This document shows positions 41-20,756 of a DNA stretch of 41,448 nucleotides, one piece after another. The stretch lies in UHGV virus genome UHGV-0135480; one strand, given 5' to 3'. The first letter of the stretch is position 1. Every line of letters starts with the position of its first letter. The notes under the pieces are model-generated. The model searched no databases and was not told the DNA's origin. It was given only the letters and a program-made list of their open reading frames with translations. A program made the translations under genes and the position numbers. The stretch comes from a virus.

Positions 41-116
41 AGTCCAAGTAGCTTATATGGTTAAAGCGCGTGTCTGAAAAACATGAGAAGAGGGTTCAAA
101 TCCCACTGGACTACCA
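41..116 (+). tRNA. tRNA, probable tRNA-Phe (anticodon GAA)
   Basis: Acceptor agtccag-like pairing 41-47 with 106-112, D-arm with GG, anticodon stem cgtgt(69-73)/acatg(81-85) with loop cTGAAaa (U33, GAA at 76-78), T-loop GGTTCAAATCC, encoded CCA 114-116. One acceptor and one T-stem mismatch lower confidence. Confidence 0.55.
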
Positions 117-11580: not shown

Positions 11581-12027
11581 ATGGCTATGTATCAGCAATA
11601 TTCCCCTAAAGACGTTGTATGTAGCTGGAATGGTATTGCCATTGAAGGCTTTGCCCCAGACTCATTTTTACGTCTACAGAGAACATCACCACTTATCACA
11701 CCAGTTGTAGGTGCAGGTGGTCAAGTTGCTCTGACAAGAAATGCAGACAAGACAGGTACTATTGAGATTGAGCTAATGCAGACTTCTCTCTCTAATCAGA
11801 TGCTTTCTGCAATTCAAGCTAAACAAGACAATATGGAACTTGAAGAAGATATCTCTTCTAACTTCGTAATCTACGACCCATCAGGCTCTGTTCTGGCAAC
11901 TGGTATTAATGCTTGGTTGCAGGAATTACCGCAGATTGAACTTGGTCGTGACCAGAACTCTAAAACTTGGATTTTTGGTTGTGAGAAGCTAGACTACACT
12001 TCAACAATTCCAGCGTCAAGTGTTTAA
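11581..12027 (+). CDS. putative tail tube protein
   Basis: 148 aa, immediately after the putative sheath and followed by a strong intrinsic terminator. Confidence 0.45.
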   Translation: MAMYQQYSPKDVVCSWNGIAIEGFAPDSFLRLQRTSPLITPVVGAGGQVALTRNADKTGTIEIELMQTSLSNQMLSAIQAKQDNMELEEDISSNFVIYDPSGSVLATGINAWLQELPQIELGRDQNSKTWIFGCEKLDYTSTIPASSV

Positions 12028-12039
12028 TAAATCCTATAA

Positions 12040-12071
12040 GGGGGGGACTTTAAAAGGTCTCCCCCTTTTTT
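12040..12071 (+). terminator. rho-independent terminator after the sheath/tube genes
   Basis: GC-rich stem gggggggac/gtctccccc with 8-nt loop, followed by TTTTTT(12066-12071). Confidence 0.65.
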
Positions 12072-12099
12072 GTTTCTTTTAAAGTATTAAGGAATCACA

Positions 12100-12498
12100 A
12101 TGAAAACAGAATCTAGAGTAATTAATGGTAAGAAAGTAAATATCGTTCTGCTTGGGGCAAGAGATGGTATTAAGATGTCTATGAAGTTGGGTAAAATTGT
12201 TGTTCCAACCTTTGCACAGATGCTATCAAGTCTGACTGATAAAGATAAGAAAGAGGCTCCAATGGTTCCATTTAAAGAACTTGTTGAAGCTTGTTTTGAC
12301 AGAATTGAAGAAATTAACCTTGAAGAAATGGCTACCCTATTATTTCAAGGGGCAACTGTTGATGACTTCCCACTTAATATTGATACATACTTCCAAGCAA
12401 ACTATGGTGAATTTATTGATTACTTAGCATTTGCGCTGGAGGCAAACTTCGGAAGTTTTTTCGAAGCAAGCATTTTCAAAAGCCTAACTTCTCAGTAA
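12100..12498 (+). CDS. tail assembly chaperone (upstream frame)
   Basis: 132 aa acidic ORF directly before the tape measure gene; overlaps a second open frame carrying a slippery heptamer. Confidence 0.5.
   Translation: MKTESRVINGKKVNIVLLGARDGIKMSMKLGKIVVPTFAQMLSSLTDKDKKEAPMVPFKELVEACFDRIEEINLEEMATLLFQGATVDDFPLNIDTYFQANYGEFIDYLAFALEANFGSFFEASIFKSLTSQ
12456..12462 (+). other. candidate -1 programmed ribosomal frameshift slippery heptamer T_TTT_TTC
   Basis: X_XXY_YYZ heptamer lies in the frame of ORF 12100..12498, inside the 70-nt overlap where the -1 frame is open (12429 to 12740). Confidence 0.45.
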
Positions 12499-12500
12499 AC

Positions 12501-12739
12501 ATGGGTAATACTCTACAGACACCACTGACTGATGCTGCTGTAGAGGCAACCTATGAAGAAGCAGACGAGATGAAATTTGTGCTTGCTATTTATGGTATGG
12601 AAGGGTGTAAAGAAACACTTGACCAACTCTTTGCTATGACATTCTCTGATTTATTATCATTGAGACAATTTCTTGAAATTCAGAGGTCGTATAAAGAGGA
12701 AATTGCTTACAACGAACTTAGAAGAGCAGGAAAAATGTA

Positions 12740-12740
<1 letters not shown>
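12501..12740 (+). CDS. tail assembly chaperone C-terminal extension (-1 frame; likely made as a frameshift fusion)
   Basis: Frame is open from 12429, overlapping the upstream chaperone ORF; ATG at 12501 could also allow independent translation. Confidence 0.4.

Positions 12741-20756
<8,016 letters not shown>

What the first reader, a model, noticed from the sequence alone, without database searches (positions are those of the whole stretch)
12429..12498. Candidate -1 programmed frameshift between the two tail assembly chaperone frames
The ORF upstream of the tape measure gene overlaps a second open frame by about 70 nt, and inside the overlap sits the slippery heptamer T_TTT_TTC (12456-12462) in the correct X_XXY_YYZ register for a -1 shift. 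This matches the conserved G/GT-type frameshift of tailed phages.
Basis: partly seen in the sequence, partly recalled or inferred. Interest (0 to 1): 0.45.

Follow-up and report, generated by a model that had tools for sequence, protein, structure and literature searches.

The report
Known phage tail-chaperone ribosomal frameshift site
This is the usual "slip back one base" signal that lets a Felix O1-type phage make a short and a long version of its tail assembly chaperone from one stretch of DNA; it is real and strongly conserved, but already predicted and annotated in close relatives, so it is ordinary.

Summary
ORF1 (12100-12498, 132 aa, Pfam Phage_TAC_15) lies between the tail tube gene and the tape measure gene. 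ORF2 (12501-12740) is in its -1 frame. T_TTT_TTC sits at 12456-12462 in the X_XXY_YYZ register. One correction: the -1 frame opens at 12420, so the overlap is 79 nt, not about 70.

The window is a Felixounavirus (about 98% identical to many records). A -1 slip here gives a 213-aa fusion. GenBank already carries this product for phage Meda (same genus) and for Moogle, Michonne, Mordin and Maleficent, and three genome announcements state the frameshift.

All 51 related loci, in about 13 lineages down to 27% protein identity, carry the T run at this position. Fifty have TTTTTTC in register; the CL1 record has one extra T. Nucleotide conservation peaks on AAGTTTTTTCGA.

The ORF2 ATG has no Shine-Dalgarno sequence, is ATA in one relative and is absent in several genera. 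Independent initiation therefore cannot be the general route.

I found no conserved downstream stem-loop. A GGAGG 13 nt upstream is a possible, non-universal stimulator. There is no direct experimental proof for this phage.

The parts
11581..12027 (+). Tail tube gene (148 aa) immediately upstream. It gives the context 'tube - chaperone - tape measure'.
   Evidence: phrog_280 and Pfam KPP10_Orf10. The Sf14 homologue gp40 is the tail tube (PMC11821841).
12038..12077 (+). Intrinsic-terminator-like hairpin plus T-tract between the tube gene and the chaperone gene.
   Evidence: 13-bp stem with 7 GC pairs, followed by TTTTGTTTCT. The same position is annotated 'terminator' in the Meda record.
12100..12498 (+). 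ORF1, the short tail assembly chaperone (132 aa, 'G-like' product of standard decoding).
   Evidence: PF21822 Phage_TAC_15 at 71.5 bits (cut-off 22); phrog_1613 at E=8e-49.
12438..12442 (+). GGAGG, a Shine-Dalgarno-like element 13 nt upstream of the heptamer. It is a candidate, non-universal frameshift stimulator (inferred).
   Evidence: Present at 11-14 nt spacing in 8 of 13 lineages. Absent in Hafnia, Kolesnikvirus, CR8, W70 and the GC-rich contigs.
12420..12498 (+). Overlap of the zero frame and the open -1 frame (79 nt).
   Evidence: The last -1 frame stop is TGA at 12417-12419.
12456..12462 (+). Slippery heptamer T_TTT_TTC, where tandem tRNA-Phe slippage moves the ribosome to the -1 frame.
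   Evidence: Register verified. In register in 50 of 51 related loci. It is the centre of the longest invariant nucleotide run, AAGTTTTTTCGA 12453-12464.
12462..12740 (+). -1 frame segment decoded after the slip (92 aa, 'T-like' extension). The fusion is join(12100..12462,12462..12740), 213 aa.
   Evidence: Translation. Fusion proteins of 6 lineages align colinearly across the junction. The 79-aa part matches phrog_4963 at E=3e-55.
12501..12740 (+). ORF2 as conventionally annotated (79 aa from ATG 12501). It is most likely only the C-terminal part of the fusion.
   Evidence: No SD: duplex dG +0.7 against a median of -6.05 kcal/mol for 34 genes. The ATG is not conserved.
12740..14968 (+). Tape measure protein gene (742 aa), the presumed client of the chaperone.
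   Evidence: phrog_4036 (1532 bits); PF20155 TMP_3.

Best explanation
This is a programmed -1 ribosomal frameshift in the tail assembly chaperone gene of a Felix O1-like myophage (genus Felixounavirus).

Most ribosomes read ORF1 to its stop at 12496-12498 and make the 132-aa chaperone.

A minority slip. With tRNA-Phe on UUU (12457-12459, P site) and tRNA-Phe on UUC (12460-12462, A site), both tRNAs move back one base onto UUU_UUU (12456-12461). The ribosome then reads CGA (12462-12464) and continues in the -1 frame to the stop at 12738-12740. The result is a 213-aa fusion: 121 N-terminal residues shared with the short form plus a 92-residue extension.

By analogy with lambda gpG/gpGT and P2 gpE/gpE+E', the shared part would coat the tape measure protein, and the extension would recruit the tail tube protein. 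The low slip frequency would set the ratio of the two forms. This functional step is inferred, not shown here.

The signal is essentially the heptamer itself. No conserved downstream RNA structure exists. A GGAGG 13 nt upstream may enhance slipping in this and several other lineages.
For: Shown by sequence:
- Frames, register and product.
- Identity of the genes: chaperone PF21822, tape measure PF20155, and the order sheath/tube/chaperone/tape measure.

Shown by comparison:
- The window is a Felixounavirus.
- The slip-derived protein equals the deposited Meda frameshift CDS AXY86324.1 and the 212-aa CDS of Michonne, Mordin and Maleficent; Moogle carries a deposited 212-aa fusion in the same 90% cluster.
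- TTTTTTC is in register in Felixounavirus, Suspvirus, Mooglevirus, Hafnia phage, Kolesnikvirus, Pectobacterium phage Wc4-1, three Vequintavirinae and three unclassified IMG/VR lineages, including GC-rich contigs. Protein identity falls to 27%.
- The codon before the two Phe codons varies (AGT, TCT, TGT) but always ends in T.
- The longest nucleotide run invariant in 6 lineages is AAGTTTTTTCGA, centred on the site.
- Fusion proteins align without a break through the junction and through the region upstream of the ORF2 ATG.
- ORF2 cannot generally start on its own. It has no SD, the ATG is ATA in L023, and the first in-frame start lies 160-240 nt downstream in Hafnia, Kolesnikvirus and L044.

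Literature:
- U_UU.U_UU.C belongs to the efficient heptamer class in E. coli (H_HH.U_UU.Y) and shifts at more than 0.1% without stimulators (PMC4066793).
- The frameshift is stated for the Felix O1-like phages Moogle, Michonne and Mijalis (PMC4319497, PMC4591319, PMC5543628).
- Peptides of the ORF2 homologue gp42 were detected by mass spectrometry in Sf14 particles (PMC11821841).
Against: - There is no direct experimental demonstration for this phage or, as far as I could find, for any member of this chaperone family. The GenBank joins and the papers are predictions by analogy.
- No significant or conserved stimulatory structure lies downstream. The 48 nt after the site fold at -3.2 kcal/mol (z=+0.83), and the consensus fold of 8 lineages has 0 pairs. 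Efficiency may therefore be low.
- In Felixounavirus, Suspvirus and Mooglevirus an ATG lies 2-10 nt after the ORF1 stop, at non-homologous positions. This could mean that termination-reinitiation also contributes there.
- The Sf14 mass spectrometry found gp42 but not gp41, which a fusion alone does not predict.
- A T6 run is also a possible, though short, site for RNA polymerase slippage. Comparative data cannot separate the two mechanisms.
Confidence: 0.85

Rival explanations
1. Two separate proteins. ORF2 is translated only from its own ATG at 12501, by termination-reinitiation after the ORF1 stop (TAA-AC-ATG). The T-run is merely the coding sequence for Ser-Phe-Phe.
For: - An ATG sits 2 nt after the ORF1 stop.
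- Suspvirus and Mooglevirus also have an ATG within 10 nt of the stop, at non-homologous positions.
- Most GenBank records annotate two separate CDS.
- Sf14 virion mass spectrometry detected gp42 but not gp41.
Against: - The ATG has no SD: dG +0.7 kcal/mol, the weakest of the genes compared and weaker than the median random ATG.
- The ATG is ATA in Felixounavirus contig L023.
- In Hafnia, Kolesnikvirus, Wc4-1, L044 and Vequintavirinae the conserved start of the ORF2 homologue has no start codon, so it must be reached from ORF1.
- Codon choice keeps TTTTTTC in register in every lineage, including GC-rich ones.
- Amino-acid homology in the -1 frame continues upstream of the ATG.
Confidence: 0.06
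2. Transcriptional slippage. RNA polymerase adds one extra U on the T6 template run, and a fraction of mRNAs carry U7. These encode the same 213-aa fusion by standard decoding.
For: - The shift site is a homopolymer.
- The resulting protein would be identical, as the CL1 record with T7 illustrates.
- A weak hairpin (12436-12452) directly precedes the T-run, giving a terminator-like pattern.
- Comparative data cannot tell the two mechanisms apart.
Against: - From general knowledge of bacterial RNA polymerase slippage (reviewed in PMC5009743), productive slippage needs longer runs, typically 8-9 or more A or T. Here the run is exactly 6 in all lineages and never longer.
- The upstream hairpin is not conserved in Hafnia or Kolesnikvirus, and terminator-like hits are at the chance level (2 found against 1.1 expected).
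- T_TTT_TTC is an experimentally efficient ribosomal -1 heptamer in E. coli.
Confidence: 0.05
3. The shift occurs at the weaker downstream tetramer T_TTC (12474-12477, zero-frame ATT TTC) by single A-site tRNA-Phe slippage, rather than at the heptamer or in addition to it. The junction would then read ...FFEASIFQKPNF.
For: - U_UU.Y is the second most shift-prone tetramer in E. coli (PMC4066793).
- The tetramer lies in the overlap.
- It is invariant from Felixounavirus to Kolesnikvirus, within GCAAGCATTTTCAAAA.
Against: - Tetramers reach about 10-fold lower levels than the best heptamer.
- The tetramer is absent in Wc4-1, L044, L046, L047 and Vequintavirinae, which all keep the heptamer.
- Its conservation is explained by dual coding.
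Confidence: 0.03

Closest known systems
Annotated tape measure chaperone frameshift of Felix O1-like phages (Salmonella phage Meda Meda_064/AXY86324.1; Citrobacter phages Moogle, Michonne, Mordin, Maleficent, Mijalis)
   Same: The gene, position and heptamer are the same. The Meda product is what a slip at the homologous T_TTT_TTC gives, and the Meda region is 97.8% identical to the window. [quoted passage not shown]
   Different: Nothing of substance. The window's own 213-aa fusion differs from Meda's by a few residues and is not itself in the protein collection. Most Felixounavirus records, including Felix O1 AF320576 and RefSeq entries, still list two separate CDS.
Bacteriophage lambda gpG / gpGT (Levin, Hendrix & Casjens 1993; Xu, Hendrix & Duda 2004, 2013, 2014)
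   Same: There are two overlapping ORFs just upstream of the tape measure gene. A -1 shift near the end of the first gives a C-terminally extended minor product, and no strong RNA stimulator is needed. The presumed roles are that the shared part binds the tape measure and the extension binds the tube protein (summary in PMC5009743).
   Different: - The slippery sequence differs: lambda uses G_GGA_AAG (my own knowledge), and here it is T_TTT_TTC.
- There is no detectable sequence similarity, and the Pfam family is different.
- This is a myophage with a sheath.
- The extension is shorter, 92 aa.
- Lambda's 30:1 ratio was measured, whereas here the ratio is unknown.
Phage P2 gpE / gpE+E' (Christie et al. 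2002)
   Same: It is also a contractile-tail phage with a chaperone pair upstream of the tape measure gene. It also uses a -1 shift on a T-rich heptamer, T_TTT_TTG in P2 (my own knowledge).
   Different: No sequence similarity was found. P2-like efficiency is reported to be 2-3 fold higher than lambda's (PMC5009743), whereas here it has not been measured.
E. coli dnaX and IS-element -1 frameshift signals
   Same: They share an X_XXY_YYZ heptamer. U_UU.U_UU.C is used by some IS elements. In this window a possible upstream SD-like stimulator lies at 13 nt, within the 6-17 nt range used by Sharma et al..
   Different: dnaX and IS3 also have strong downstream hairpins or pseudoknots, and none is conserved here. 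The SD-like element is not universal in this family.

Membership tests
G/GT-type conserved tail assembly chaperone frameshift (Xu, Hendrix & Duda 2004) | Two ORFs located between the major tail (tube) gene and the tape measure gene | tested here: met
   Tube 11581-12027, ORF1 12100-12498, ORF2 12501-12740, tape measure 12740-14968.
G/GT-type conserved tail assembly chaperone frameshift (Xu, Hendrix & Duda 2004) | The second ORF overlaps the 3' end of the first in a shifted (-1) frame | tested here: met
   The -1 frame is open from 12420, giving a 79-nt overlap.
G/GT-type conserved tail assembly chaperone frameshift (Xu, Hendrix & Duda 2004) | A slippery sequence in the correct register inside the overlap | tested here: met
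   T_TTT_TTC at 12456-12462. It is an efficient motif in E. coli.
G/GT-type conserved tail assembly chaperone frameshift (Xu, Hendrix & Duda 2004) | The second ORF lacks its own translation initiation signals | tested here: inconclusive
   There is no SD, and the ATG is missing in L023 and in several genera. However, this phage does have an ATG 2 nt after the ORF1 stop, so reinitiation cannot be excluded.
G/GT-type conserved tail assembly chaperone frameshift (Xu, Hendrix & Duda 2004) | The arrangement is conserved among diverged relatives | tested here: met
   51 loci in about 13 lineages down to 27% identity. Conservation peaks at the site.
G/GT-type conserved tail assembly chaperone frameshift (Xu, Hendrix & Duda 2004) | A frameshift fusion protein is made at a low, fixed ratio and is required for tail assembly | not testable with these tools
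   The only indirect evidence is that Sf14 gp42-frame peptides were seen by mass spectrometry.
Pfam PF21822 Phage_TAC_15 | Score above the curated gathering threshold | tested here: met
   71.5 bits against a cut-off of 22, covering residues 9-124.
Stimulated -1 PRF signal (heptamer plus downstream hairpin or pseudoknot 5-9 nt away) | A stable, conserved downstream RNA structure | tested here: not met
   dG is -3.2 kcal/mol with z=+0.83 for the 48 nt downstream. RNAalifold gives 0 pairs for 8 lineages. Per-lineage z-scores range from -2.0 to +1.8 with no shared structure.
Transcriptional slippage site | A long homopolymer run (typically 8-9 or more A or T) on which RNA polymerase slips | tested here: not met
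   The run is T6 in 50 of 51 loci. The only T7 is an Ion Torrent assembly.

The most novel reading that the evidence does not exclude
Three products rather than two may come from this locus: the short chaperone, the frameshift fusion, and a free 79-aa 'T' protein made by reinitiation at ATG 12501.

The free T protein might end up in the virion. In Sf14, particle mass spectrometry detected gp42 but not gp41.

The slip frequency might also be tuned by the phage's own tRNA-Phe(GAA) at 41-116 rather than by any mRNA structure.

None of this is tested. It rests on the recurrent but non-homologous ATGs just after the ORF1 stop in three genera, on the Sf14 mass spectrometry table, and on the co-occurrence of the tRNA gene.
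Probability: 0.08. Interest if true: 0.4.

Novelty: already known. Interest (0 to 1): 0.1.

Why it matters
Its main value is for annotation. Most Felixounavirus records, including Felix O1 itself and several RefSeq entries, list two separate 'hypothetical' or 'chaperone' CDS. They should instead carry a join(12100..12462,12462..12740)-type ribosomal_slippage feature.

There is also a small general point. In this chaperone family (PF21822) the same heptamer, T_TTT_TTC followed by C or G, is fixed inside the conserved N-[FY]-[GS]-[SC]-F-F motif. It spans two phage subfamilies and unclassified GC-rich phages, and it has no conserved RNA stimulator. This makes the family a clean natural example of a heptamer-only, low-level frameshift.

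Felix O1-like phages are used for Salmonella typing and biocontrol, so correct gene models have practical use.

Tried and rejected
- **Downstream stimulatory structure.** I folded 12463-12510 and 12456-12560, ran RNAalifold on 8 lineages and folded each lineage separately with shuffles. Nothing sits at 5-9 nt. The only decent hairpin in the window (about 12500-12555, 44 nt downstream) is not conserved. Rejected as a stimulator.
- **Weak hairpin 12436-12452 before the T-run.** The terminator scan flagged it. It is at chance level and not conserved. Rejected.
- **NCBIfam scan** of ORF1, ORF2 and the fusion: no hits.
- **PDB sequence search** with the fusion: nothing meaningful, best E=0.62.
- **Exact look-up of the window's own fusion and of the Kolesnikvirus fusion:** neither is in the collection. 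The Meda, CL1 and Mooglevirus fusions are.
- **Supplementary files of the Sf14 structure paper,** searched for gp41/gp42 peptides: nothing held.
- **Paper PMC6669636:** its 'frameshift' mentions concern host LPS genes and are irrelevant.
- **CL1's fused single ORF (T7) as a natural in-frame variant.** Rejected as evidence. The genome was sequenced on Ion Torrent, and the record shows another homopolymer-length difference in a coding region.
- **A_AAG_GGG at 15750 as a second frameshift site.** Rejected; it is the SD of the next gene.
- **Not run:** structure prediction and the large protein-database searches, because they could not change the verdict.

Full report
**What is in the sequence**

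ORF1 runs from 12100 to 12498 (132 aa) and ORF2 from 12501 to 12740 (79 aa). The 742-aa ORF at 12740-14968 follows directly. ORF2 lies in the -1 frame of ORF1.

The last stop in that frame is TGA at 12417-12419. The -1 frame is therefore open from 12420 and overlaps ORF1 by 79 nt.

The zero-frame codons are AGT(12454) TTT(12457) TTC(12460). TTTTTTC at 12456-12462 is thus an X_XXY_YYZ heptamer in the correct register.

A -1 slip there gives a 213-aa protein. It has 121 residues of ORF1, then RSKHFQKPNFSVN, then the whole of ORF2.

**What the genes are**

- ORF1 matches Pfam PF21822 (Phage_TAC_15) at 71.5 bits against a cut-off of 22, and phrog_1613 'tail assembly chaperone'.
- ORF2 matches phrog_4963.
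- The downstream gene is a tape measure protein (phrog_4036, PF20155).
- The two genes upstream are the tail sheath and tail tube.

The region is about 98% identical to many phages of the genus Felixounavirus, the Felix O1-like myophages.

**Is it more than chance?**

From the window alone the evidence is only modest. In-register heptamers occur at 0.36% per codon in the + strand ORFs, so about 0.09 are expected in a 26-codon overlap.

The site is nonetheless exceptional among them:
- It is the only T_TTT_TTC in register in those ORFs.
- It is one of only two heptamers that open a long -1 frame.
- The other, at 15750, is the ribosome binding site of the next gene.

**Comparative evidence**

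I examined 15 GenBank loci and 36 IMG/VR loci. They cover Felixounavirus, Suspvirus, Mooglevirus, a Hafnia phage, Kolesnikvirus, Pectobacterium phage Wc4-1, three Vequintavirinae (CR8, Av-05, W70) and three unclassified lineages. One of the unclassified lineages is GC-rich, and protein identity falls to 27%.

Fifty of the 51 loci have TTTTTTC in the same register, inside the conserved motif N-[FY]-[GS]-[SC]-F-F, and a long open -1 frame leading to the tape measure gene. The remaining record, CL1, has an extra T at the run (T7).

The IMG/VR scan used that peptide motif as its probe, so the two Phe residues were given. The codon choice was not. The preceding codon is AGT, TCT or TGT but always ends in T. 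The first Phe codon is always TTT and the second always TTC. The Vequintavirinae loci came from an unbiased tblastn search and show the same pattern.

In a six-lineage nucleotide alignment of the whole locus, 24% of columns are invariant overall. Conservation peaks at the site at 63%, and the longest invariant run is AAGTTTTTTCGA at 12453-12464.

Fusion proteins built by slipping at the heptamer align colinearly across the junction. They also align across the segment upstream of the ORF2 ATG.

**Can ORF2 be made on its own?**

The ATG at 12501 has no Shine-Dalgarno sequence. Pairing to the anti-SD gives +0.7 kcal/mol, against a median of -6.05 for 34 genes of the window. It is weaker even than the median of all ATG triplets.

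The ATG is ATA in Felixounavirus contig L023. In the protein alignment the Met corresponds to Leu, Val, Glu or a gap in other genera. In the Hafnia phage contig L041, in Kolesnikvirus and in L044, the first ATG, GTG or TTG in the -1 frame lies 160-240 nt into the frame. This is far beyond the conserved start of the domain.

Independent initiation therefore cannot be the ancestral or general route. It cannot be excluded as an additional route in this phage. Felixounavirus, Suspvirus and Mooglevirus each have an ATG within 10 nt of the ORF1 stop.

**Stimulatory elements**

- The 48 nt after the heptamer fold at -3.2 kcal/mol (z=+0.83).
- The consensus fold of eight lineages has no pairs.
- Per-lineage folds share nothing.

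A GGAGG at 12438-12442 lies 13 nt upstream of the heptamer. This is within the 6-17 nt range in which SD-like stimulators of -1 frameshifting were searched by Sharma et al. (PMC4066793). It or a close variant occurs at 11-14 nt in 8 of 13 lineages. The Hafnia phage encodes the same Leu-Glu-Ala with codons that destroy it, and Kolesnikvirus, CR8, W70 and the GC-rich contigs lack it. I treat it as a possible lineage-specific enhancer.

The heptamer itself belongs to the efficient class in E. coli (H_HH.U_UU.Y). It shifts at more than 0.1% without stimulators, and IS elements use it (PMC4066793).

**Comparison with what is known**

The GenBank record of Salmonella phage Meda is in the same genus, and its region is 97.8% identical to the window. 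It annotates a two-piece CDS, 'Tape measure chaperone frameshift product'. Citrobacter phage Maleficent does likewise.

An exact-sequence look-up shows that the proteins I derived by slipping at T_TTT_TTC are identical to deposited products. These are Meda AXY86324.1 and the 212-aa products of Michonne, Mordin and Maleficent (AKU44019.1, ALA06885.1, AYR00813.1, YP_009177317.1). Moogle carries its own deposited 212-aa fusion (AIW03804.1, YP_009145710.1) in the same 90% cluster.

The general biology comes from lambda G/GT: a 30:1 ratio, G binding the tape measure protein and T binding the tube protein. It is summarised in PMC5009743.

The finding is therefore already known as a prediction. I found no experimental demonstration for this family. 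The nearest is particle mass spectrometry of Mooglevirus Sf14, which detected gp42 (the ORF2 homologue) but not gp41 (PMC11821841).

**Rival explanations**

- *Independent initiation only:* about 0.06, for the reasons given above.
- *Transcriptional slippage on T6:* about 0.05. It would give the same protein and cannot be separated by comparison. However, the run is short, is never longer in any lineage, and the motif is a proven ribosomal shifter.
- *A shift at the weaker tetramer T_TTC at 12474-12477:* about 0.03. It is possible, but that motif is missing in the more distant lineages that retain the heptamer.

**Side observations**

- Phage CL1 has T7 instead of T6, and its record therefore carries a single fused 213-aa CDS. 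CL1 was sequenced on Ion Torrent (PMC9156722) and has another homopolymer difference in a coding region. This is most likely a sequencing error.
- The window encodes its own tRNA-Phe(GAA) at 41-116, the tRNA that reads both codons of the heptamer.

**Verdict**

The feature is already known, and interest is low.

Noticed in passing
window 41-116 (+); also 870-962 and 967-1042: The phage encodes tRNA-Phe(GAA), the tRNA that decodes both codons (UUU, UUC) of the slippery heptamer. It also encodes tRNA-Ser(GCT) and tRNA-Cys(GCA). Whether the phage tRNA-Phe affects the slip frequency is unknown.
   Followed up: no
L004/L050 (Escherichia phage CL1, OK040806.1), homologous to window 12456-12462: The CL1 record has T7 instead of T6 at the heptamer, so it carries a single fused 213-aa 'tape measure chaperone' CDS (UCJ01344.1). 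The genome was sequenced on Ion Torrent, and it also differs by A5 to A4 at window 8181 inside a coding region. The T7 is most likely a homopolymer sequencing error.
   Followed up: yes
L023 (IMGVR_UViG_3300045988_004167), homologous to window 12501-12503: An 87-kb Felixounavirus contig has ATA instead of the ORF2 start ATG, while the heptamer and both frames are intact.
   Followed up: partly
window 12038-12077 (+): A strong intrinsic-terminator-like hairpin (13-bp stem plus T-tract) lies between the tail tube gene and the chaperone gene. It is annotated as a terminator in the Meda record. It would lower expression of the chaperone and tape measure genes relative to sheath and tube.
   Followed up: partly
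window 15750-15756 (+): A_AAG_GGG is in register near the end of ORF 14968-15765, and its -1 frame runs into the next gene (15765-16106). The simplest reading is that it is the Shine-Dalgarno sequence (AAGGGG) 8 nt before ATG 15765, not a second frameshift site.
   Followed up: partly
window 12474-12477 (+): A second, weaker shift-prone tetramer T_TTC (zero-frame ATT TTC) lies inside the overlap. It sits within the 16-nt block GCAAGCATTTTCAAAA, which is invariant from Felixounavirus to Kolesnikvirus but not beyond.
   Followed up: partly
L006 (Citrobacter phage BSwM KMM4, OP902293.1) 601-1237: The chaperone gene is broken into extra pieces in this record: an 89-aa CDS, with the match split into 3 tblastn pieces. 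The heptamer is intact. This is probably an additional indel or sequencing error in the record.
   Followed up: no
L013 (Shigella phage Sf14) 1011-1238; PMC11821841 Table 1: Virion mass spectrometry of Sf14 lists gp42 (the ORF2 homologue) as detected and gp41 (the ORF1 homologue) as not detected. This is unexpected for assembly chaperones, which are normally absent from particles, and the data were not searched for a fusion.
   Followed up: partly
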